Source: Verrucomicrobiota bacterium | Lineage (GTDB): Bacteria; Verrucomicrobiota; Verrucomicrobiia; Methylacidiphilales; JBCBYL01 | Direction of reading: 5' to 3' | Assembly (NCBI GenBank): GCA_038748025.1 | Contig: JBCDJI010000010.1 | Coordinates: 69,453-133,452, forward strand | Length of the DNA: 64,000 bases | Part shown: one piece after another, positions 3,673 through 61,711 of the stretch | Layout of the letters: every line of letters starts with the position of its first letter | Numbering within the stretch: the first letter of the stretch is position 1 | Position numbers and translations under genes: made by a program | Notes under the pieces: model-generated | Told to the model about the DNA's origin: nothing | Seen by the model: the letters and a program-made list of their open reading frames with translations, nothing else | Database searches by the model: none

Positions 3673-3772
3673 TCTGAATCCTCACTTCACGGAAATTCAC
3701 AGGATCAAAAACGGAACTGGGTCGCATACAACATCACTTGCCAAGTTCGCAGGGTTAGGGCATTTTTTTTCT

Positions 3773-25467: not shown

Positions 25468-27909
25468 TTATTCCATACCTGCTTCCCTGACCAGTTGATC
25501 GGATTCAAGTTCCAGTAACGCCGCCACGCCGCCCCCATCAATTGTTTCTTTACCCACTTCCAGAATGACCGGAATCGCAAAGGGAGAGATACGTTCGAGT
25601 CGCACGAAATGATGATGTCCCTGTGCTTCACTCAGCACGGCGTGCAAACGATCGCTGTTTACCATACCACGCGCTGCTTCAACGCGGGTAGCCTCCAGCA
25701 GCACGTGATCGGGCTCATATTGATGCAGCACATCGTAAATTAAATCGGAGGAAAAGGTCACCTGGCGACCCGACTTGCGTTTGCCGGGCAGTTGCCGGTC
25801 GATGAGCCCCGCGACCACCGCCGTTTCCCGGAATGTGCGTTTCATCCAGAAGGACTGATCCAGCCAGGTGCCCAGTTCCTGCTGAATGATTTCAGGATCC
25901 AGCAACGCTGCTGCCGTTGCGGCATCAGCGACCGGTTTGAGTGACCACACTGCCAGGGAGTAATCCGTAGTGACAAACCCCATAGGCTGCAGTCCGCATT
26001 TCTCCATCCGCTGAGTCATCAGCATACCTAAAGTATGATGAGCCGCCTTTCCTGCAAATGGATGCATCACCAGAAACTGCATTTCCTGGCGTGAAAAAGA
26101 CTCAACCAGAAGTTCATTCCTCTGCGGAATATGTGAGCGCCGGTCCTGCCAGGCCAGCCACTGCTGCACCGGCCCCGGAAAATCCGGCCAGTGGTTCCGG
26201 TCCGCAATGCGATCCCTCACTCGTTGTGCCAGTGGACCGGAGAGTGGTAATCTTCCTCCGGCAAAAGCAGGAATCTTAGGCGTATCCCCTTTGGCAGGTT
26301 CGGTTATTACCATCATTTCACGCACACTTTTAAACTCCAGCAAGCGGCCCGAAAACAAAAACGTATCGCCTGGTTGTAGTCCCTGAATAAACCGCTCTTC
26401 CACCTCACCCAGATGCATCCGCTTCCCCATCCGGATTTTAAGATGGGTATAACCGACGATGGTGCCAATATTCATCCGGTAATTGCGCGCGATGCGCTGG
26501 CTAGCTATCTGCAGTCTGCCATCCGGCAATGTCTTAAGCTTGCGGAACTGTTCATACGCTTTCAATGCATAGCCGCCGGTTGCCGCAAAATTTAACGCCC
26601 GGTCAAACAGCTCGCGCGACAATGCGCGATAAGGTCCGGCTGCTTTCACCTCGGCAAATAGCTGGTCGGTCCAAGCCGGGCTTGAACAACATCTTCCTGT
26701 AAGATGCTGGATCAGCACGTCCATGCTGCCGGTGCGTCGGTAATGATTGTCCAGATCATTGACGGTAATGGCATCAATCGCAGCCAGTGCTTCTATGGTT
26801 TCCATCCGGTTCGTCGGAACCAGCACTGCTTTACTTGCCTTGTCCAGTTGGTGATTGGATCGCCCGATGCGCTGCATCAGTCGAGCCACCCCTTTTGGCG
26901 GTCCGATCTGCACCACCAGATCCACGCTGCCCCAGTCGATCCCCAGATCCAGTGACGAAGTGGCCACTACGGCTCGGTATTCTCCATTCGCCAAATCCTG
27001 CTCCAGCTCCAGCCGGTGTTCGCGATCCAGACTACCATGGTGTAGCGCTATGGGCAGGTCCTCATGATTCATCTCCTGCAGGGCCTGATAGGTGAGCTCC
27101 GCTTGTGCCCGGGTATTGACGAATACTATGCTGGTCTGATGCTGGAGGATCATCTGTATTATTTCCGGAATGGCATAGCGTCCGCTGTGCCCCGACCACG
27201 GCAAGCGATCCGTAGCCTCCAATAAAGTGATGTCAGGCACAGCTTTGGTAACCATCTGCTGCTGGTAGGCATTAATGACCCTTACCTGCTCCGGATTCCG
27301 GGCATTCAGATATCCAGCCAGCTCTTCCGGTTCCGCGACTGTGGCAGAGAGCGCAATCAGTTTCAGCTTCGGATTTGCTTGCCGCAGCCGCGCCAGGTTC
27401 AGAGCTAACAGATCGCCCCGCTTGTTGTCCGCCAGCGCGTGCAGTTCATCCAGAATCACATAATCCAGATGTTTAAAATACGCCTCGGCATCCGCGTAGG
27501 AATGGATCAGCGCCAACGACTCCGGCGTCGTCAGCAGCATGTCCGGCGGGTCGGTCATCTGCTTTTTGCGCTGGTAGCTGTTGGTATCGCCGGTGCGGAC
27601 TTCGCACCGCAGTCCCAGTTTCATTTCCAGCAGCGGCACCTGCAGGTTGCGGTGAATGTCTGTAGCCAATGCCTTGAGTGGGGAAAGATAAAGCATCCGC
27701 AGTTTGGATTTAGAAGCAGAAGCTGCCGCCGCATCGATCAGCCCGGGTAGAAAACCCGACAATGTCTTTCCGCCACCAGTTGGAGCAATCAGCAGCACCG
27801 TATCTGCCGAGTGACTCGCCTCAATGACATCCAGCTGGTGCGGATACGGCGCCCAACCACGCGACTCGAACCAATATTGAAAGCGCTCAGGAAGTTTTGT
27901 CATTTTCAT
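25468..27909 (-). CDS. lhr: Ligase-associated DNA damage response DEXH-box helicase (Lhr-like)
   Basis: APTGGGKT (Walker A), ILDELH (DExH), SATV, HHGSL...TSSLDLGID...QIGPPKG..RIGRSNH. The start is MKMTK (27909) or MTK (27903). Confidence 0.85.
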   Translation of the reverse strand: MKMTKLPERFQYWFESRGWAPYPHQLDVIEASHSADTVLLIAPTGGGKTLSGFLPGLIDAAAASASKSKLRMLYLSPLKALATDIHRNLQVPLLEMKLGLRCEVRTGDTNSYQRKKQMTDPPDMLLTTPESLALIHSYADAEAYFKHLDYVILDELHALADNKRGDLLALNLARLRQANPKLKLIALSATVAEPEELAGYLNARNPEQVRVINAYQQQMVTKAVPDITLLEATDRLPWSGHSGRYAIPEIIQMILQHQTSIVFVNTRAQAELTYQALQEMNHEDLPIALHHGSLDREHRLELEQDLANGEYRAVVATSSLDLGIDWGSVDLVVQIGPPKGVARLMQRIGRSNHQLDKASKAVLVPTNRMETIEALAAIDAITVNDLDNHYRRTGSMDVLIQHLTGRCCSSPAWTDQLFAEVKAAGPYRALSRELFDRALNFAATGGYALKAYEQFRKLKTLPDGRLQIASQRIARNYRMNIGTIVGYTHLKIRMGKRMHLGEVEERFIQGLQPGDTFLFSGRLLEFKSVREMMVITEPAKGDTPKIPAFAGGRLPLSGPLAQRVRDRIADRNHWPDFPGPVQQWLAWQDRRSHIPQRNELLVESFSRQEMQFLVMHPFAGKAAHHTLGMLMTQRMEKCGLQPMGFVTTDYSLAVWSLKPVADAATAAALLDPEIIQQELGTWLDQSFWMKRTFRETAVVAGLIDRQLPGKRKSGRQVTFSSDLIYDVLHQYEPDHVLLEATRVEAARGMVNSDRLHAVLSEAQGHHHFVRLERISPFAIPVILEVGKETIDGGGVAALLELESDQLVREAGME

Positions 27910-28312
27910 CCGCAGATGACGCAGATTTTCGCAGATTAAATACCAATCTTTTATATTGGAGGCTCGGGGCACCAAAATTAATTAGCAGCCCTCGGTTTAG
28001 GCCTGTGGCTTTGAGATAATTGATTACTTGAGATTCTTCTACGCCGGTTAGTTTTTGCAGAGCTTTCAATTCTACAATGACCATACCATAACAAATAAAA
28101 TCTGCCTGATATTCTGCGATGACCTCACCCCGATACGATACCGGCAAGCGAACCTCTCGTTCATACGGAATGCCTTGTGCCAGGAAATCCTTTTCGAGCG
28201 CCGTCTGATAAACTGCCTCTAAAAAACCATGCCCTAATTCACGATGGACGGTCATGGCTACACCAATAATGTCATAAGTTTCTTTATCTTTGTTTTTAGA
28301 ATCTGCGTCCAT
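27887..28312 (-). CDS. GxxExxY protein (PD-(D/E)xK nuclease-like), copy 1
   Basis: TVHRELGHGFLEAVYQTAL carries the GxxExxY motif. ADFICYGMVIVELKA has the D...ELK nuclease-like motif. The C-terminal 15 aa are encoded by the repeat arm. Confidence 0.85.
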   Translation of the reverse strand: MDADSKNKDKETYDIIGVAMTVHRELGHGFLEAVYQTALEKDFLAQGIPYEREVRLPVSYRGEVIAEYQADFICYGMVIVELKALQKLTGVEESQVINYLKATGLNRGLLINFGAPSLQYKRLVFNLRKSASSADENDKTS

Positions 28313-28329
28313 CTGCGAAATCTGCGGAT
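27908..28329 (-). mobile_element. GxxExxY cassette 1: gene bounded by inverted arrays of 3 phased CGCAGAT heptamers
   Basis: Arm 27908..27937 is atcCGCAGATgaCGCAGATtttCGCAGATt. Arm 28300..28329 is aATCTGCGtccATCTGCGaaATCTGCGgat. The arms are in inverted orientation with 9-10 bp phasing. Confidence 0.4.
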
Positions 28330-41866: not shown

Positions 41867-44107
41867 TTAAAGATCGACGCGGACTCCACCTGTCGCAGAA
41901 TTCACGATATAGCCTTCCTGTCCGATCTGCAGCTGCCAACCGAGAGTGAAATGAATGTTGTCTGCCTCGGTTAAGGAGGCATTGAACCCGGCCCCGATGA
42001 CTGCAAAATCTGCGTCTGCCTCGCGAGTTGAAACGGTGAAGCTGGCAAGTGCCGGATCGATAAAGGTGGTGGTTACATCTCTCGAATTATCCAGGAACTC
42101 GTGGTGCCAGGCAGCGCTGACATATGGAGCACACCAGCCCCAGTCACCCTCGAACGTCTTGGCCAGTTCAAAGCCAAGTTTCGTGCGTAAGGAATGTGCC
42201 GTCTGATCATCAAAACTGAGGCCCGCTCCGCCCAGTCCGGATTCCTGAAAGTCTTCCACATGCAGTAGAGAATACTGGAGACCCACCATCGGGGTTACGC
42301 GAATACTTCTATCCGCTCCAAAGTGAATGTCTCTGGAAAGTTCGAGCGCGGAGATGAACTGGTGCGCATCTGCATCACTCTCTCCGGTTCCAGTGAACGT
42401 TGGTGATACAATATTACGTTCGTTTTCATAAGCAGTATAACTGTATCCGAGGATGCCGCTGGCAAGCCAGTCACCCCACTGATAACGCGCATAGCCACCG
42501 ACCTGCGCACCATTACCCTCCATGTTTGAACCAAAGGCATCCACATCTGAATCGACACTCTGATATCCAATGTAGCCGCCTGCATTCAGTGCCTCAGAAA
42601 GGTTCTTGCCTGCCCCGATGATTACGGAAGTGCTGACGGTCTCACTTTCTGCCAGACCAGAAATGTCATCCTGTTGCGCGTAGGATCCGGAACCGATGAC
42701 AAATGCCTGCCAGTCGTAAAAAGGATCAAAACCGGAGGCTGCGGCAGTAGCCAGAGTCGCCGCTTCAAGCGAGCCCGTGTCCACCGAGACCAGGCCGGGA
42801 TTGCTCATCGCCAGTAAGTTCTGGTCCATGTTGACCAGCATGGGATCCAGATCCCGGGTATTCCACTGGAAGGCCGTGAGATCTGCCCCCATGGCTGCGT
42901 TACGTCCCTGATGGCGCAGCTGACTGAAAAAATCCCCGGTCATGCGGGTCGCATTATTGAACGCGACACTAGAAAATGCATTTTGATAGACCTGCCCACT
43001 GACTGTCTGGGCCAACTCATTAAGATCGGAAAGCGCGACGCTGTTCAACGCAATGAAGATGTCAATGAATTCAGTACCCGGAGCCGTCGTAACATTGTCC
43101 AGACTGCTGGCAAATCCACTGAGCCCGGGAGCTGTTAGCAGGCTGGAAAACGTCTGGAAACCGGTTACGTTGACGGTAGCAAAACTGTTTAGCGTTAGCG
43201 GACTACCCAGGATTGTAACTGTGCCTGAGCCTCCGGTCGCAATAAGCGCATTGGCGGTGGCCTGCGAAAACCCGCGCCAATTGTTGAAATTGATCGTGTC
43301 GGCTCCACCACCGCCATTGACTGTACCAGTCAGCAGCGAGTATCCATTCAGATTCACCGTATCGGCTCCACCACCACCATTGATCGAGTTACCGCCGCCG
43401 TTGGCTACGATGCGACTCGCAGTAAGGTTTAGGGTGTCATCATTACCAGCTAAACTTAATGCATTACCTCCACCCGATGTTGTAATCGTCGAGTTTATAA
43501 TCGTTACGACGTCGTTCCCGCCAGCGGTATGAATCCCCCGGCCGCCACCGGTTGTGGTAAAGGTGGTATCCGAAATATTTATAACGTCATTCCCTCCTCC
43601 GGCACTGATCCCATCTCCACCGCCCGCAACGGAGATTGTACCACCCGTAATGTTAAAAGTCTCTACATTGCCTGACCCGTTAAAGGCATCTCCACCACCA
43701 AAATTCACAGTAATGTTCCCTGAGCTCCAAACGGTAGCACCTCCCGTAATTGAAATCGCATGATCGCCCGTGCCGGAACCATTCAGAATGATATTGCCCA
43801 TGTGATTCACCGTACCTGAGCTGATACGCACTGCATCCTGTCCGGTAGTAGTAATTGTAGCTCCGCTGTTAATGGTAATGGTGCTGCCGCCATTGTTGGC
43901 ATCAATACCCCGAGTTCCGGTCGTAGTAATACTTCCGCCAACCGTTATGGTATCACCGGCCGCCAGATTGGCAGGCGCTCCTGTCAGGTCACCGGCATTG
44001 GTGGTCGTCGACGAAGTTCCTGCATCCTGAGTAAAATCGACAGCTTGCCCGCTGCTAATGCAGGCAAATATTAGCGCAATAGTAATGGCGTTGTAGCATT
44101 TCATCAT
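41867..44107 (-). CDS. Autotransporter outer-membrane protein with Gly/Thr/Asn-rich beta-helical passenger
   Basis: Signal peptide MMKCYNAITIALIFACISSGQA. The passenger has degenerate GGG(N/A)D..(I/L)N repeats. The C-terminal ~280 aa has alternating aromatic beta-barrel patterns. Confidence 0.75.
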   Translation of the reverse strand: MMKCYNAITIALIFACISSGQAVDFTQDAGTSSTTTNAGDLTGAPANLAAGDTITVGGSITTTGTRGIDANNGGSTITINSGATITTTGQDAVRISSGTVNHMGNIILNGSGTGDHAISITGGATVWSSGNITVNFGGGDAFNGSGNVETFNITGGTISVAGGGDGISAGGGNDVINISDTTFTTTGGGRGIHTAGGNDVVTIINSTITTSGGGNALSLAGNDDTLNLTASRIVANGGGNSINGGGGADTVNLNGYSLLTGTVNGGGGADTINFNNWRGFSQATANALIATGGSGTVTILGSPLTLNSFATVNVTGFQTFSSLLTAPGLSGFASSLDNVTTAPGTEFIDIFIALNSVALSDLNELAQTVSGQVYQNAFSSVAFNNATRMTGDFFSQLRHQGRNAAMGADLTAFQWNTRDLDPMLVNMDQNLLAMSNPGLVSVDTGSLEAATLATAAASGFDPFYDWQAFVIGSGSYAQQDDISGLAESETVSTSVIIGAGKNLSEALNAGGYIGYQSVDSDVDAFGSNMEGNGAQVGGYARYQWGDWLASGILGYSYTAYENERNIVSPTFTGTGESDADAHQFISALELSRDIHFGADRSIRVTPMVGLQYSLLHVEDFQESGLGGAGLSFDDQTAHSLRTKLGFELAKTFEGDWGWCAPYVSAAWHHEFLDNSRDVTTTFIDPALASFTVSTREADADFAVIGAGFNASLTEADNIHFTLGWQLQIGQEGYIVNSATGGVRVDL

Positions 44108-44256
44108 TTTCTCTCCGATACGGTTTTGCACCATTCCGTTCAACGAAGCAAGTACCATTCCAAAGACTTTGGTTTATCATATTAAATATCTATTATATTG
44201 TTAGGTGTGTGATCTGATAGCATTGACATTATCTGTCTTTCTGGCAATCGGTACCC

Positions 44257-44949
44257 ATGCCCATAGAGGAATCACAGAAGCCACGCCCCTGCTGGTGGCG
44301 CCTGCCTTGGGATCTGTTGCTAGCTCATTTTTCCGAATGGGCACGTTTCCGGAAACCGACGACGCTTCTCCTGCTAGCCGTCAGTCTGGTCTCCTTAATA
44401 CTCTACCTCCAGGATGCGGAGCTGGCTGCCCGGGTCAGTCCCGAACATCGTGCAGGATGGGTCAATGAGCTGGCGCGAGGATTGAGCTACTGGGGTGATT
44501 TTCTGACCTTCTGTATTCCCGTGGGCGTATTATTCTGGCTTGGCGGCGCGTTGCTGAAACGAATTCCCTGGCAACGTGCTGGCGTTGCCTGCCTGCTCGG
44601 AGCATGCCTGGCCGGCCTGACCGCTGATTTGATCCAGTTCTCCGTCGGCCGCGCCCGGCCTCGCCATGATACAGAGATACAATTTGCTCCCTTTAATACT
44701 AAAACGGAACAGCACTCCTTCCCTTCCGGACATTCCGCCACCGCCTTCGGCAGCGCAACTGCTCTGGCTGTATGCTATCCCCCCGTCTCGGTTCCCCTGC
44801 TGCTGGGTGCCAGCGGTGTGGCGTGGTCACGCGTCTATCTGGGTGCGCACTACCCTTCCGACATCGTGATGGGCAGCGGTATTGGATTGGTTTTTGGCTT
44901 CCTGCTTGGAAAGACCGCCCGAAAAACTAGAACCACTAATGAACACTAA
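44257..44949 (+). CDS. PAP2 superfamily phosphatase (membrane)
   Basis: The acid-phosphatase motifs are RARPRH, PSGHSATAF and SRVYLGAHYPSD. The last 5 codons and the stop lie in a heptamer-repeat arm. Confidence 0.7.
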   Translation: MPIEESQKPRPCWWRLPWDLLLAHFSEWARFRKPTTLLLLAVSLVSLILYLQDAELAARVSPEHRAGWVNELARGLSYWGDFLTFCIPVGVLFWLGGALLKRIPWQRAGVACLLGACLAGLTADLIQFSVGRARPRHDTEIQFAPFNTKTEQHSFPSGHSATAFGSATALAVCYPPVSVPLLLGASGVAWSRVYLGAHYPSDIVMGSGIGLVFGFLLGKTARKTRTTNEH

Positions 44950-45022
44950 TTATCTGGAAAACCAGCACTCTTGATATATGAAAAAAGAAATTAGTGAAAA
45001 TTAGTGTCCATTAGTGGTTAAA
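44931..45022 (+). repeat. Cargo-less heptamer doublet (CACTAAT type) at the PAP2|mnmG junction
   Basis: The 5' arm is aacCACTAATgaaCACTAAT (44931..44950). The 3' arm is ATTAGTGaaaATTAGTGtccATTAGTGgttaaa (44990..45022). 44989..45022 is 34/34 identical to the reverse complement of 60490..60523. Confidence 0.85.
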
Positions 45023-45031
45023 TAGCATCCC

Positions 45032-58226: not shown

Positions 58227-60488
58227 TTACACAGCCATGCACCTGGAAATCGCCCCACGATAACTGTCCTGGAGGTGGGATAAGCGAAATTCCAGTGTGC
58301 CAGATTTTAATATGACTCGCGATAACTTGTGCTCAGCAGTAACACCAATCTTTTGTGCATTCACCTTTAATCCACTAAACTGAGCAAGCAAGGCTTCTGT
58401 TTGGGTAGCCTCCGTGGTCAAGATGGCGCGGCCTTGTGTTTCGTTGAAAAGCAAGATATCAGGTCGCAAACAAGAAGTAGCAAAATCCACTTCATACCCG
58501 ATACCACTGTTCACCGCTGATTCTGTCAGCGCCAGTGCCAGCCCGCCGTCACTGATATCGTGCGCACTTTGGACCATACCCTGATGAATGACAGCACGCA
58601 CCGCATTCTGAAATCTAACCTCTGCTTCCAGATTCATTTCCGGCGGCATTCCTTTTTTAATTCCGTGGATTTCATATAAGAAAGCAGAAGCTCCCATCTC
58701 ACTGCCTTCGCCGCCGACCAGCACGATGTCGTGACCGGTCGACTGGAAATCCGAAGGAGTAATATGTTCGCGTTCTTCGATCAATCCTACCATAGCCATG
58801 ACCGGAGTCGGATCGATGGAACATTTCGGGTTCTTATTATAAAGACTGACATTTCCACCGGTGACAGGCGTTGCAAACGCACGGCAAGCTTCAGAGAGTC
58901 CTTCCACTGATTCACGGAATTGCCAGAAAACTTCCGGATCATGTGGATTTCCAAAATTCAGATTATCGGTGCAGCCGATCGGCAGGGCACCCGACATGGT
59001 GCAGTTCCGGGCCGATTCCGCGACAGCAATCATTGCCCCTCGGCGTGGATTCAGCGAACAATAGCGCCCATTACAATCCGCGGCCATGGCAATAAAGCGT
59101 TCGCCTCCGCTCTCGGTTTCAATGCGGATTACGGCAGCATCACCGCCCGGCACCAATACCGTATTCTTCTGCACCTGATGATCATACTGGCGGTAAACCC
59201 ATTCTTTCGAAGCGAGGCTGGGAGAATTCATGAGCGTGACCCAGTGCTGGGCCAGTTCCTCGGGCGCAGGCGAAGAGGGGAACTCTGCTTCGTAAGAGAA
59301 GGACTGAAGTGTCTTGAGGCCAGACGGCTCACGAACTTCACGATGATAGAGTGGTGCATCATCGGCCAACTCACGTGAGGGCACATCAGCTACCACATCA
59401 TCGCCAACCTTGATTACCGTCCGGCCGGTGTCCGTTACGTAGCCGATCTCAGCAGCATCCAGATCCCATTTGGCAAAGATGCGGCGCACCTCATCTTCAA
59501 AGCCTTTCTTTACGATGATCAGCATCCTTTCCTGCGATTCAGAGAGCATGATTTCATACGGCGTCATCCCGGTTTCACGCTGCGGCACCAGATTGAGGTC
59601 TACTTCAATGCCGGAACCTCCACGGCTGGCAGTTTCAATCGTCGAACAGGTCAGTCCGGCAGCACCCATGTCCTGCACGCCGACGACGGCCTCCGGATGT
59701 TGAAATAACTCCAGGCACGCCTCCAGCAACAGCTTCTCCATGAATGGATCCCCCACCTGAACTGCCGGACGATCTTCTTTGGATTCTTCTGTCAGGTCGC
59801 GTGAGGCGAAGGCGGCACCGGCCAGACCGTCCCGTCCGGTTTTGGCACCGACATAGAACACCGGATTGCCTACCCCGGATGCCGCTCCACGGCGGATCTG
59901 ATCATGCCGCAGGATGCCGAGATTGAAGGCATTTACCAACGGATTTCCATTGTAAGAGGGATCAAAGACGACTTCTCCCCCAACAGTCGGAACACCAATA
60001 CAGTTGCCGTAGTGGGCAATACCTTCCACTACTCCGGCCAGCAGCACGCGGTTGCGTTTGGCCTCCGCCGAGTCGCCACAGATCGGACCGAAGCGCAGTG
60101 AGTTCAAATTAGCGACCGGGCGTGCCCCCATGGTAAAGATATCGCGCAGGATACCGCCGACGCCGGTCGCCGCTCCTTGAAACGGCTCTACTGCACTCGG
60201 GTGGTTGTGGGATTCAATTTTAAAGCAGACGGCCATATTGCCGCCAATGTCGAGCACCCCGGCGTTTTCCTCTCCAGCTTTTACCAGAATCTTATCTCCT
60301 TCGGTCGGGAATTTTTTCAGTTCGGCACGTGAATTTTTATACGAGCAGTGCTCACTCCACATGACCGAAAAGATTCCGAGCTCGGTAAAGTTAGGCTCAC
60401 GTCCGAGAATCTCGAGGATGTGTTCATACTCCTCCGGTGTAATGCCGTGTTTATCGATCAGTTCAGGGGTAATTGCGGGATCTTTCAT
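58227..60488 (-). CDS. purL: Phosphoribosylformylglycinamidine synthase subunit PurL
   Basis: [14 protein letters not shown]...[25 protein letters not shown]. 753 aa. Confidence 0.95.
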
Positions 60489-60492
60489 TTTT

Positions 60493-60929
60493 AACCACTA
60501 ATGGACACTAATTTTCACTAATTAACGAACCACTCTCTTCCATTCTAGTTGGGGGTGGCTGGCAAAATTAATCAGGTAGCCAACTTTCATGCCTGCTGCT
60601 TTGAGGTAATTAAATAACGGAGCAAAATGCTCCGGTGCCAGTTTTTGAACAGCCTTTAGTTCTACTGTAATTTTTTCACTTACGATCAAATCCGGTTCGT
60701 AAGTCTGATTTAAAGAGCGCCCTTTATAATAAAGTTTTAACTTCGGCTTGGATTTGAAGGAGATATTCTGAATATCCAGCTCGTGTTCCAGGCATTCCTG
60801 ATAAACAGCTTTCAGAAAACCACTTCCTTTTTCATTATAGACTTCAAAAGCGGCAGCCATTAGTTCGTAGCCTTCCTGGTTGTATAAATTTTCCCCGTCA
60901 TTAGTGGCCATTAGTGTTAATCAGTGGTT
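60493..60929 (-). mobile_element. GxxExxY cassette 2: gene bounded by inverted arrays of 3 phased CACTAAT heptamers, inserted between purQ and purL
   Basis: Arm 60493..60523 is aacCACTAATggaCACTAATtttCACTAATt. Arm 60900..60929 is ATTAGTGgccATTAGTGttaATCAGTGgtt. The phasing is exactly 10 bp. Confidence 0.4.
60522..60911 (-). CDS. GxxExxY-family protein (PD-(D/E)xK nuclease-like), copy 2
   Basis: EVYNEKGSGFLKAVYQECL is the motif with E replaced by K. EPDLIVSEKITVELKA gives PD...ELK. 129 aa. Confidence 0.85.
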   Translation of the reverse strand: MATNDGENLYNQEGYELMAAAFEVYNEKGSGFLKAVYQECLEHELDIQNISFKSKPKLKLYYKGRSLNQTYEPDLIVSEKITVELKAVQKLAPEHFAPLFNYLKAAGMKVGYLINFASHPQLEWKRVVR

Positions 60930-61624: not shown

Positions 61625-61711
61625 AACCACAGAGGACACGGAGGCCACAGAGCAGGAACATTTAATAAATCCGTTTTTAAAAGCTCTGTGTTTCCTGTGT
61701 CCTCTGTGATT
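61625..61711 (-). repeat. Cargo-less heptamer doublet (CACAGAG type) filling the purS|purQ junction
   Basis: aacCACAGAGgaCACGGAGgcCACAGAGc, a 29-nt spacer, then gCTCTGTGttTCCTGTGtcCTCTGTGatt. The phasing is 9 bp. Confidence 0.8.

What the first reader, a model, noticed from the sequence alone, without database searches (positions are those of the whole stretch)
44931..45022. Cargo-less, MITE/REPIN-like doublet at the PAP2|mnmG junction, with one arm 34/34 identical to an arm of GxxExxY cassette 2
Seen in the sequence:
- 44989..45022 (aATTAGTGaaaATTAGTGtccATTAGTGgttaaa) is identical over 34 bp to the reverse complement of 60490..60523. That is the downstream arm of the purQ|purL cassette, 15.5 kb away in an unrelated context.
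- Its partner arm aacCACTAATgaaCACTAAT (44931..44950) can pair with 45000..45019 over 20 bp with a single mismatch. This encloses only a 49-nt loop instead of a gene.
- The partner arm supplies the last five codons and the stop codon of the PAP2 phosphatase (TTNEH*). The distal arm ends 9 nt before the mnmG ATG.
- The 5' arm retains the cassette-style start (CACTA-ATG-AA), opening an 11-codon remnant ORF (MNTNYLENQHS*). Its beginning loosely resembles the MATNDGENLYNQ start of copy 2.

Inference: this is an internally deleted, non-autonomous derivative of a CACTAAT-type cassette. Exact identity of an arm at two loci argues for recent duplication or mobilisation, or for gene conversion.
Basis: partly seen in the sequence, partly recalled or inferred. 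Interest (0 to 1): 0.75.

Follow-up and report, generated by a model that had tools for sequence, protein, structure and literature searches.

The report
Gene-less heptamer-repeat palindrome between two genes
The 92-bp stretch is a gene-less copy of a widespread, apparently undescribed palindromic element made of phased 7-base repeats, and the same repeats bracket small GxxExxY nuclease genes, which suggests a nuclease-plus-satellite system like the REPIN/RAYT pair.

Summary
44989-45022 is 34/34 the reverse complement of 60490-60523. The arms 44931-44954 and 44996-45019 pair over 24 nt (92%). The left arm supplies the PAP2 stop codon, and the right arm ends 9 nt before the mnmG ATG.

- The doublet does belong to the same family as the arms around the purQ|purL GxxExxY gene.
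- Nothing supports an origin by internal deletion. The loop resembles the cassette interior no better than chance.
- Gene-less doublets with loops of 2-130 nt far outnumber gene-carrying copies in the genomes sampled from several phyla.
- Identity does not prove recency. A relative keeps the same 34-mer although synonymous sites are saturated.

The family consists of AAC plus 2-3 heptamers (CRCNNAN) at 9-10 nt phase, in inverted arrays. Heptamers are conserved, spacers are not. Each GxxExxY subfamily keeps its own heptamer across phyla: CRCTNAT for the purQ|purL type, CGCAGAT for the other copy in the window. Orthologous junctions in relatives carry other heptamer types or no element.

Most likely (about 0.45) the doublet is a non-autonomous partner recognised in trans by the cognate PD-(D/E)XK nuclease. 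No description was found in the literature searched.

The parts
44931..44954 (+). Left arm of doublet A: AAC + CACTAAT (44934-44940) + gaa + CACTAAT (44944-44950) + tatc. It encodes the last PAP2 codons and the TAA stop (44947-44949).
   Evidence: I12
44955..44988 (+). Variable loop of doublet A. Together with the left arm it holds the incidental 11-codon ORF 44938-44973. It shows no similarity to the cassette interior beyond chance.
44989..45022 (+). Right arm of doublet A: ATTAGTG x3 (44990, 45000, 45010) + GTT + AAA. It is 34/34 identical to the reverse complement of the downstream arm of cassette 2 and ends 9 nt before the mnmG ATG (45032).
   Evidence: I1
44928..44930 (+). Out-of-frame TAG immediately 5' of the arm. 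It aligns with the in-frame PAP2 stop of the closest relative (L211), which suggests that PAP2 now reads through into the arm. This is an inference.
60490..60523 (-). Downstream arm of cassette 2, between the GxxExxY stop and the purL ATG at 60488. It is the same 34-mer as in doublet A, and it is identical in relative L210.
60522..60911 (-). GxxExxY / PDDEXK_3 nuclease gene (129 aa), the putative cognate of CACTAAT arms. Its ATG is formed by a heptamer plus G.
60900..60929 (-). Upstream arm of cassette 2 (on the coding strand AAC CACTGAT taa CACTAAT ggc CACTAAT). It contains the purQ stop codon (60921-60923).
   Evidence: I2
61625..61711 (.). Doublet B, a second cargo-less element of the same family: CACAGAG/CACGGAG heptamers at a 9-nt period with a 29-nt loop, at the purS|purQ junction.
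   Evidence: I8; I3
27908..28329 (-). Cassette 1: CGCAGAT-type arms (27908-27937 and 28300-28329) around a second GxxExxY gene of another subfamily (ORF 27887-28312).
   Evidence: (I3)

Best explanation
44931-45022 is a cargo-less member of a family of short intergenic palindromes. Each arm is the triplet AAC followed by 2-3 copies of one heptamer (general form CRCNNAN, here CACTAAT) spaced 9-10 nt apart. The two arms face each other across a variable loop. The same arms bracket small genes for GxxExxY (PF13366, TIGR04256) PD-(D/E)XK nucleases.

I propose that it works like a REPIN with its RAYT, or like a MITE or homing site with its nuclease. The phased heptamers would be the DNA recognition sites of the cognate nuclease subfamily. 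Here that is the CACTAAT-type gene between purQ and purL, 15.5 kb away. Acting in trans, the nuclease would cut at or near the arms. Host repair would then copy, convert or maintain the arms, which would explain the 34/34 arm shared by the two loci.

The element is tolerated at 3' ends of genes inside operons because the arm itself carries TAA stops in two frames and an ATG in the third.

Shown: the anatomy, the family and its spread across phyla, constraint on heptamers but not on spacers, heptamer type tracking the nuclease subfamily, gain, loss and type turnover at orthologous junctions, and a conserved catalytic D...ExK in a confident nuclease fold.

Inferred: that the nuclease binds the heptamers, that it acts in trans on the doublet, and how copies are made.
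For: 1. Family. An unbiased repeat scan of those loci finds almost only CRC-type heptamers.

2. Sequence-specific constraint. Heptamer positions carry about 1.7 bits and the AAC flank 1.6-2.0 bits. Spacers carry 0.36-0.53 bits. Between the two arms of one element, heptamer positions are 93.6% complementary. Spacers are 41.6% complementary against a null of 29.6%.

3. Coupling of gene and arm.
- 83 of 84 purQ|purL-type cassettes have flanking arrays. 75 of those arrays have a CRCTNA[TAC] consensus, 72 of them CRCTNAT. The closest eleven homologues all have CACTAAT or CACTAAG arrays on at least one side.
- The nearest protein neighbour shares the heptamer consensus in 50 of 84 cases, against 22.9 expected and a maximum of 37 in 2000 permutations.
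- The other subfamily carries CGCAGAT arms, visible as translated NPQITQMDAD heads and NLRKSAQSAD tails. These are found in 54 and 62 of 120 homologues, and in 0 of 120 of the first subfamily. The homologues are 65-87% identical across several phyla.
- CACAGAG arms flank a third type in Bacteroides finegoldii.

4. Cassette and doublets of the same heptamer occur together in one genome: the window, the MAG DAOVNC01 (L103 and L035) and the MAG CBRAFL01 (L017, L099, L104).

5. Turnover.
- purS|purQ carries a CACAGAG doublet in the window, a CACGAAT doublet in L207, nothing in L210 and a CACTAAT cassette in L127.
- PAP2|mnmG carries CACTAAT in the window, other heptamer types in L211, L123, L125 and L126, and no array in L212 and L213.

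6. The arms are under selection. L210 keeps the 34-mer 34/34 while third-position identity at 4-fold-type codons is 0.37-0.53.

7. Nuclease. D74, E84 and K86 are invariant in 70 homologues. The AlphaFold model has pLDDT 91.7 and its best fold match is Cas4 SSO0001, followed by lambda exonuclease.

8. Position. Of 73 doublets, 23 lie between tandem genes, 12 between convergent genes and 3 between divergent genes. None lies inside a long ORF (P = 0.007 for so few divergent sites).
Against: - No biochemical or genetic evidence links GxxExxY proteins to these repeats, and their function is listed as unknown (PMC3424549).
- Heptamer-protein association could be simple co-inheritance of a linked unit.
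- One cassette (L058, Ancylomarina) has CACTAAT arms with a protein of the other subfamily.
- Cassettes sit at the same junction (purQ|purL, and upstream of hemL) in diverged genomes, so they behave as long-term residents rather than frequent jumpers.
- No target-site duplication was seen.
- The whole genome could not be searched, so copy numbers and the match between doublet classes and cassette classes are unknown.
- Doublet B (CACAGAG) has no cognate gene within the window.
Confidence: 0.45

Rival explanations
1. Host-serving structural element at operon junctions. The inverted arrays form a hairpin in the polycistronic mRNA, or a cruciform in DNA. This structure would stabilise or process the upstream message, or couple translation of PAP2 and mnmG. 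The shared 34-mer would reflect selection for one favoured arm sequence, not copying.
For: - Strong predicted fold (z = -5.5).
- Doublets lie almost only downstream of genes.
- The arm is conserved 34/34 in L210 despite saturated synonymous sites.
- Arms carry stop and start codons and end a few nt before the next ATG.
- From my own knowledge, REP and MIRU elements have such roles.
Against: - Spacers are mostly non-complementary, so the helix is interrupted every 7 bp.
- G.U versus A.C replacements show no strand bias, 14 against 19, though the sample is small.
- Pairing alone would not keep the same heptamer in all six positions, nor tie it to a nuclease subfamily.
- No terminator-like features and no Rfam family.
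- Relatives carry different heptamers or nothing at the same junction.
Confidence: 0.2
2. Empty attachment site or excision scar. Doublets would be the recombination sites of GxxExxY cassettes. Cassettes would enter and leave by recombination between doublets, and doublet A would be an unoccupied or vacated site.
For: - In 37 of 85 cassettes the gene lies between two complete doublets. In some (L183, L155) these are near-identical direct repeats, as expected after Campbell-type integration.
- Tandem cassettes exist (L147, L152).
- The arms end in AAC...GTT, and doublet A ends in GTTAAAT, reminiscent of integron attC core sites (my own knowledge).
Against: - No integrase or recombinase gene adjoins any of the four elements in the window.
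- In this genome and its relatives the cassettes have the arm-gene-arm form. Recombination between those arms would invert the gene, not excise it.
- Arms track the gene's subfamily, so cassettes bring their own arms rather than adopting resident ones.
- No cassette was seen at PAP2|mnmG in seven genomes.
Confidence: 0.15
3. One reading: a full CACTAAT cassette once sat at PAP2|mnmG and lost its gene by internal deletion, leaving a MITE-like shell.
For: - The arms match those of cassette 2 (34/34 on one side, 18/20 on the other).
- The relative L207 has an upstream cassette arm reduced to two heptamers, like the left arm of the doublet.
- The ATG of the heptamer opens a short ORF.
Against: - The loop shows no similarity to the 5' end, the 3' end or the whole of the cassette interior (p = 0.17 to 0.84).
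- Relatives have other doublets or nothing here, never a cassette.
- Doublets with loops of 2-15 nt are common, which is hard to obtain by imprecise deletion.
Confidence: 0.1

Closest known systems
REPIN-RAYT systems (Bertels and Rainey; bioRxiv 10.1101/2021.07.10.451892, read)
   Same: - Both are roughly 100-bp extragenic doublets of two inverted repeats around a variable spacer.
- Both have an associated gene flanked by the same repeats.
- That gene sits in the same intergenic space across relatives and is rare on plasmids and phages.
- Different gene groups go with different repeat families.
   Different: - The gene is a 125-aa PD-(D/E)XK nuclease (PF13366), not a HUH/Y1 transposase.
- Each arm is a direct array of phased heptamers, not a small palindrome with a GTAG or CGTC tag.
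- Several gene copies with different heptamers occur in one genome (two in 64 kb).
- One subfamily is 65-87% identical across phyla, which implies horizontal transfer.
- The host range is PVC and Bacteroidota rather than mainly Proteobacteria.
MITEs derived from TIR transposons, such as Correia/NEMIS elements (my own knowledge)
   Same: Short, non-coding, with terminal inverted repeats matching those of a gene-carrying element in the same genome. Intergenic and close to coding ends.
   Different: No target-site duplication was seen. There is no internal homology to the parent. The parent gene is not a recognised transposase. The arms contain repeated subterminal sites rather than a single TIR.
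Homing endonuclease genes sitting inside their own recognition site (my own knowledge)
   Same: A small nuclease gene lies in the middle of a palindromic site that also exists uninterrupted elsewhere. The gene and its flanking site co-vary. The gene is inserted between conserved housekeeping genes, like free-standing phage HEGs.
   Different: No cleavage has been shown. The uninterrupted sites persist in the same genome. The protein family is not one of the known homing-enzyme families, apart from a weak fold hit to the I-Bth0305I catalytic domain (E = 0.08).
MIRU-type intercistronic repeats of mycobacteria (my own knowledge)
   Same: Short repeats inside operons whose ends overlap the stop codon of the upstream gene and lie next to the start codon of the downstream gene.
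   Different: MIRUs are direct tandem units with small ORFs. They are not inverted heptamer arrays and have no associated nuclease gene.
Integron attC sites (my own knowledge)
   Same: Imperfect palindromes bounding small promoterless genes, with AAC...GTT at the ends. Some loci show gene-between-two-sites and tandem arrangements.
   Different: No integrase. The elements are dispersed at housekeeping operon junctions rather than in one array. The heptamer iterons are unlike the attC R/L boxes.

Membership tests
REPIN (with RAYT) | Two inverted repeat units around a variable spacer, in extragenic space | tested here: met
   The arms 44931-44954 and 44996-45019 are 92% complementary. The loop is variable between elements. 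All 73 doublets lie outside long ORFs.
REPIN (with RAYT) | A gene in the same genome is flanked by the same repeat | tested here: met
   Cassette 2 (60490-60929) carries CACTAAT arms, one of them 34/34 identical to the doublet arm.
REPIN (with RAYT) | That gene is a HUH/Y1 RAYT transposase | tested here: not met
   The gene matches only PF13366 PDDEXK_3 and TIGR04256 GxxExxY. The predicted fold is Cas4/lambda-exonuclease-like.
REPIN (with RAYT) | Each arm is itself a short palindrome (a REP hairpin), often tagged GTAG or CGTC (PMC3733652) | tested here: not met
   Each arm is a direct array AAC-(CACTAAT-N3)x2-3, with no internal dyad and no GTAG or CGTC tag.
REPIN (with RAYT) | Tens to hundreds of copies per genome | not testable with these tools
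   Only 64 kb of the source genome could be read. It holds four elements.
MITE (internally deleted transposon) | Terminal inverted repeats matching an autonomous element in the genome | tested here: met
   The right arm is 34/34 identical. The left arm is 18/20 identical to the upstream arm of cassette 2.
MITE (internally deleted transposon) | Internal sequence derived from the parent element | tested here: not met
   Loop against cassette interior gives a local score of 18 against a null of 15.4 +/- 2.3 (p = 0.17). Comparison with the first and last 60 nt gives p = 0.53 and 0.84.
MITE (internally deleted transposon) | Target-site duplication | tested here: inconclusive
   The flanks are CTAG|AAC...GTT|AAAT here and other sequences elsewhere, with no consistent direct repeat. 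Empty sites in relatives are too diverged to align.
GxxExxY cassette (TIGR04256 gene between heptamer arms) | Encloses a GxxExxY ORF | tested here: not met
   The arms enclose only 34-41 nt, and the only ORF has 11 codons. This is why the element is called cargo-less.
Heptamer-array palindrome family (defined in this work) | AAC + at least two CRCNNAN heptamers at 9-11 nt phase, a mirrored complement array ending in GTT, CRC arm first | tested here: met
   The doublet fits the consensus derived from 91 elements.
Intrinsic terminator | G+C-rich stem followed by a T run | tested here: not met
   No terminator-like site in 44900-45030. The stem is A+T-rich and is followed by AAA.
Any Rfam RNA family | Covariance-model match | tested here: not met
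   The only hit is a chance miRNA match (E = 0.71, 21 bits against a gathering score of 130).
Integron attC | RYYYAAC...GTTRRRY cores and a neighbouring intI or cassette array | tested here: inconclusive
   AAC and GTT are present, and GTTAAAT fits GTTRRRY, but the left core CTAGAAC does not fit RYYYAAC. The neighbouring genes are PAP2, mnmG, purS, purQ and purL, not an integrase. The rest of the window was not scanned for intI.

The most novel reading that the evidence does not exclude
GxxExxY/PDDEXK_3 proteins are sequence-specific nucleases. In this reading, each subfamily reads its own 7-bp word presented two or three times, one helical turn apart. Together with their gene-less heptamer doublets they would form a cross-phylum class of intragenomic replicators in PVC bacteria, Bacteroidota and others. 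These would be analogous to REPIN-RAYT but built on a restriction-enzyme-like fold. The heptamer-protein pairs would amount to a natural table of recognition specificities for a 125-residue DNA-binding nuclease.
Probability: 0.3. Interest if true: 0.85.

Novelty: new variant of a known kind. Interest (0 to 1): 0.7.

Why it matters
- PF13366/TIGR04256 is a large family of unknown function. More than 7,900 proteins matched one query here. Tying each subfamily to a specific phased heptamer gives the family a first testable function.
- It would add a second, unrelated enzyme class to the short list of long-lived nuclease-plus-satellite systems in bacterial chromosomes, and extend them to phyla where REPINs are rare.
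- There are practical consequences for annotation. The arms break short-read assemblies: contigs L122 and L125 end inside an arm. They extend gene calls, giving PAP2 the tail ...TTNEH and producing NPQITQMDAD heads and NLRKSAQSAD tails on GxxExxY proteins. They also supply stop and start codons at operon junctions.

Tried and rejected
- **Known RNA family:** the Rfam search of the region gave nothing real.
- **Terminator or promoter:** the scan found none at the element.
- **Remnant of a deleted gene:** alignment of the loop to the cassette interior is at chance level.
- **Sense-strand RNA pairing:** G.U against A.C replacements between arms were 14 against 19, so no bias.
- **Continuous hairpin:** spacer complementarity is only 41.6% against a null of 29.6%.
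- **Defence system or phage protein:** no PADLOC or PHROG match.
- **Solved homologue by sequence:** none in the PDB.
- **Other cargo:** I expected, from memory, four-helix-bundle '23S IVS' proteins between such arms. None was found in the 120 pattern-matched loci, where the only recurrent cargo was GxxExxY.
- **Carriage on mobile replicons:** 8 of 72,556 plasmid records, mostly megaplasmids, and no phage record.
- **Literature:** searches for GxxExxY, PDDEXK_3, CACTAAT with inverted repeat, IVS with four-helix bundle, and heptanucleotide palindromes in Verrucomicrobia gave no description of these elements.
- **Source genome:** it was not among the 120 loci returned by the capped genome scan, so a genome-wide count was impossible.
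Full report
**1. The observation**

The sequence is as described.
- 44989-45022 is the exact reverse complement of 60490-60523 over 34 nt. This is the longest inverted repeat in the window (I1).
- 44931-44954 pairs with 44996-45019 over 24 nt at 92% (I12).
- The left arm reads AAC-CACTAAT-gaa-CACTAAT. The right arm reads ATTAGTG-aaa-ATTAGTG-tcc-ATTAGTG-GTT.
- The PAP2-family ORF (PF01569) ends ...TTNEH* with its TAA inside the second heptamer.
- mnmG (TIGR00136) starts 9 nt after the arm.
- CACTAAT is over-represented: 12 copies against 5.3 expected, and no shuffle out of 100 reached 12.
- The region folds far better than shuffles (z = -5.5).
- The 11-codon ORF is real. Its likeness to copy 2 comes from the repeat itself. 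Beyond M-x-T-N the similarity is at chance level.

**2. What else is in the window**

The four strongest local inverted repeats are four elements of one kind.
- Cassette 1 (27908-28329) has CGCAGAT arms.
- Cassette 2 (60490-60929) has CACTAAT arms.
- Doublet A is the finding.
- Doublet B (61625-61711) has CACAGAG/CACGGAG arms and lies between purS and purQ.

Both cassettes enclose a TIGR04256 GxxExxY / PF13366 PDDEXK_3 gene. In both, the start codon is made from the ...AT of a heptamer plus a G.

**3. The family outside the window**

They come from Planctomycetota, Verrucomicrobiota (including Opitutales, Kiritimatiellales and Lentisphaerae), Bacteroidota, Nitrosomonas, Nitrospinia and a few others. 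For 21 fixed bases in 596 Gb I estimate about 0.3 chance hits.

- Among the 146 arrays the 3-nt spacers take almost any value. The outer flank is AAC, or GGAA in Planctomycetota.
- An unbiased search for any 7-mer repeated three times at 8-12 nt spacing found, in the same loci, CGCTAAT, CGCGAAT, CACGAAT, CACGGAT, CACAGAT, CACGAAA, CGCAGAT, CGCAAAG and CACAGAG. The general form is therefore CRCNNAN.
- Paired arrays almost always have the CRC arm first.
- Loops fall into two groups. Loops of 2-130 nt carry no gene. Loops of about 360-420 nt carry a GxxExxY gene.
- In this sample there were 73 gene-less doublets against 9 GxxExxY genes. No other recurrent cargo was seen.

**4. What is constrained**

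- In cassette arms, heptamer positions carry about 1.7 bits, the AAC flank 1.6-2.0 bits, spacers 0.36-0.53 bits and the inner flank 0.3 bits.
- Between the two arms of one element (91 elements), heptamer positions are 93.6% complementary. Spacers are only 41.6% complementary against a null of 29.6%. The potential helix is therefore interrupted every 7 bp.
- Where the arms differ, replacements that would be G.U on the sense transcript (14) are no commoner than those that would be A.C (19).
- The element does not look like a terminator and matches no Rfam family.

These points argue against a plain RNA hairpin. They favour recognition of the heptamer word itself, repeated about once per DNA turn.

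**5. Gene and arm go together**

- A metagenome scan with the purQ|purL-type protein returned 80 loci. With five further loci this makes a set of 85, one of which had no detectable flanking array. Arrays were found at 83 of the 84 loci outside the window. In 75 of the 84 with arrays the consensus is CRCTNA[TAC], and in 72 it is CRCTNAT.
- The eleven closest homologues (54-66% identity) all have CACTAAT or CACTAAG arrays on at least one side. A clade with an EIYKDEGY start has CGCTAAT. More distant members have CGCGAAT, CACGAAT or CACGGAT.
- The nearest protein neighbour shares the consensus heptamer in 50 of 84 cases, against 22.9 expected and a maximum of 37 in 2000 permutations.
- The second subfamily (cassette 1) shows the same rule with another word. 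Its homologues are 65-87% identical across Verrucomicrobiota, Victivallales, Thermodesulfobacteriota, Nitrococcus and Sedimentisphaerales.
- Their gene calls carry NPQITQMDAD heads and NLRKSAQSAD tails, which are translated CGCAGAT and ATCTGCG arrays. Heads occur in 54 of 120 and tails in 62 of 120, against 0 of 120 in the first subfamily.
- A Bacteroides finegoldii GxxExxY gene between radA and a FAD-dependent gene has CACAGAG-type arms at a 9-nt period, the type of doublet B.
- One exception was seen: L058 has CACTAAT arms with a protein of the other subfamily.

Two architectures exist: arm-gene-arm (40 loci) and doublet-gene-doublet (37 loci).

**6. History at the two junctions**

The source is the MAG GCA_039025795.1, a Verrucomicrobiota bacterium.

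*The purQ|purL cassette is old.*
- It is present in L210 (GxxExxY 86% identical), L207 (69%) and L128 (62%).
- Between the window and L210, third positions of conserved 4-fold-type codons are only 37-53% identical. Even so, the downstream arm is 34/34 identical and the upstream arm differs at 2 of 38 positions.
- The arm is therefore under selection or is continually homogenised. Identity alone does not date the doublet.

*The purS|purQ junction varies.* It holds a CACAGAG doublet in the window, a CACGAAT doublet in L207, nothing in L210 (32 nt) and a CACTAAT cassette in L127.

*The PAP2|mnmG junction varies too.*
- The window holds the CACTAAT doublet.
- L211 (PAP2 78% identical) holds a mixed doublet: AAC-CACTGAT-CACGGAG ... 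CTCTGTG.
- L123 (72%) holds CGCTAAG/CGCAAAG.
- L126 (69%) holds CACGAAT, with a last unit tccATTAGTTGTTaaaaa that resembles the one in the window.
- L125 (72%) ends in a CTCTGTG array.
- L212 (74%) and L213 (54%) have short spacers with no array.

Doublets are therefore gained, lost and changed in type, possibly by patchwise conversion. No cassette was seen at this junction.

The PAP2 C-termini differ in every relative. In the window an out-of-frame TAG sits directly 5' of the arm, where L211 has its in-frame stop. This suggests read-through into the arm (an inference).

**7. Position**

Of the 38 doublets with two resolved neighbours, 23 lie between tandem genes, 12 between convergent genes and 3 between divergent genes (P = 0.007 against 25%). 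None lies inside a long ORF. In about a dozen flanks the neighbouring ORF ends at the TAA of the first or second heptamer, as PAP2 does.

**8. The protein**

D74, E84 and K86 are invariant in 70 homologues. The AlphaFold model is confident (pLDDT 91.7). Its best fold matches are Cas4 SSO0001 (E = 2.5e-4) and lambda exonuclease.

There is no sequence match in the PDB, PADLOC or PHROGs. The gene is rare on plasmids and absent from the phage collection. The one review that lists PDDEXK_3 gives its function as unknown, with multiple transfers (PMC3424549).

**9. Explanation**

The best reading is a nuclease-plus-satellite system. The heptamer arrays would be the recognition sites of the cognate GxxExxY subfamily, and gene-less doublets such as 44931-45022 would be partners acted on in trans. 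The shared 34-mer would then be a product of copying or conversion between the two CACTAAT loci.

This works like REPIN-RAYT (definition), or like a homing nuclease with its uninterrupted site. Membership in REPIN-RAYT fails on two defining features: the enzyme class and the arm structure.

What is shown is the anatomy, the distribution, the constraint, the coupling and the turnover. Binding, cleavage and the copying mechanism are inferred.

**10. Novelty**

Searches of 8 million papers found no description of these arrays or of repeats flanking GxxExxY genes. The survey of REPs that covers PVC bacteria describes only GTAG- and CGTC-tagged palindromes.

I rate the system a new variant of a known kind: a palindromic satellite with a resident enzyme gene. 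The specific finding is one ordinary member of that system.

Noticed in passing
window 61625-61711: A second cargo-less doublet (AAC-CACAGAG-ga-CACGGAG-gc-CACAGAG, 9-nt period, 29-nt loop) lies between purS and purQ. The junction is empty in relative L210, holds a CACGAAT doublet in L207 and holds a CACTAAT GxxExxY cassette in L127.
   Followed up: yes
window 27887-28329: Cassette 1 lies between a divergent Lhr-like helicase gene and a ligase-associated exonuclease/ATP-dependent DNA ligase pair. Its ORF reads through the downstream arm (tail NLRKSASSADENDKTS) and overlaps the helicase start region.
   Followed up: partly
window 44921-44949: PAP2 appears to read past an out-of-frame TAG (44928-44930), which is in frame in relative L211, and to stop at the TAA of heptamer 2. 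Five doublets in other genomes show the same stop position, 16 nt into the arm.
   Followed up: partly
proteins P0160-P0279 (homologues of window 27887-28312): This GxxExxY subfamily is 65-87% identical across Verrucomicrobiota, Victivallales, Thermodesulfobacteriota, Nitrococcus and Sedimentisphaerales, which points to horizontal transfer. Public gene calls carry artefactual heads (NPQITQMDAD) and tails (NLRKSAQSAD) that are translated repeat arms.
   Followed up: partly
L002 59-717 (Nitrosomonas MAG): A tandem run of CGCTAAT / ATTCGCG doublets with a 174-nt period. The two arms use heptamers that differ at one position.
   Followed up: no
L147, L152, L183, L155: L147 and L152 hold tandem GxxExxY cassettes, each preceded by a + arm. 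In L183 and L155 the gene is flanked by two near-identical complete doublets, including their loops, as after Campbell-type integration.
   Followed up: no
L038, L039, L052 and other Planctomycetota loci: In Planctomycetota the outer flank is GGAA instead of AAC. The nuclease gene usually lies between two doublets rather than between the two arms of one.
   Followed up: partly
L122 (end at 3762) and L125 (end at 3754): Short-read (Logan) contigs end inside the heptamer arms, so these repeats break assemblies.
   Followed up: no
L214-L218 (IMG/VR contigs): GxxExxY genes on contigs classed as viral are also flanked by inverted short-period arrays. Some use non-CRC words (GATGAAC, AAATGAA). L218 has CGCGAAA/CGCTAAA with AAC...GTT ends.
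   Followed up: no
window 41867-44158 and 43284-43383: Upstream of PAP2 lies a 763-aa autotransporter (PF03797) with glycine-rich internal repeats, including a 63-nt direct repeat (D14). It is absent from some relatives (L123, L125), where the ABC transporter gene adjoins PAP2 directly.
   Followed up: no
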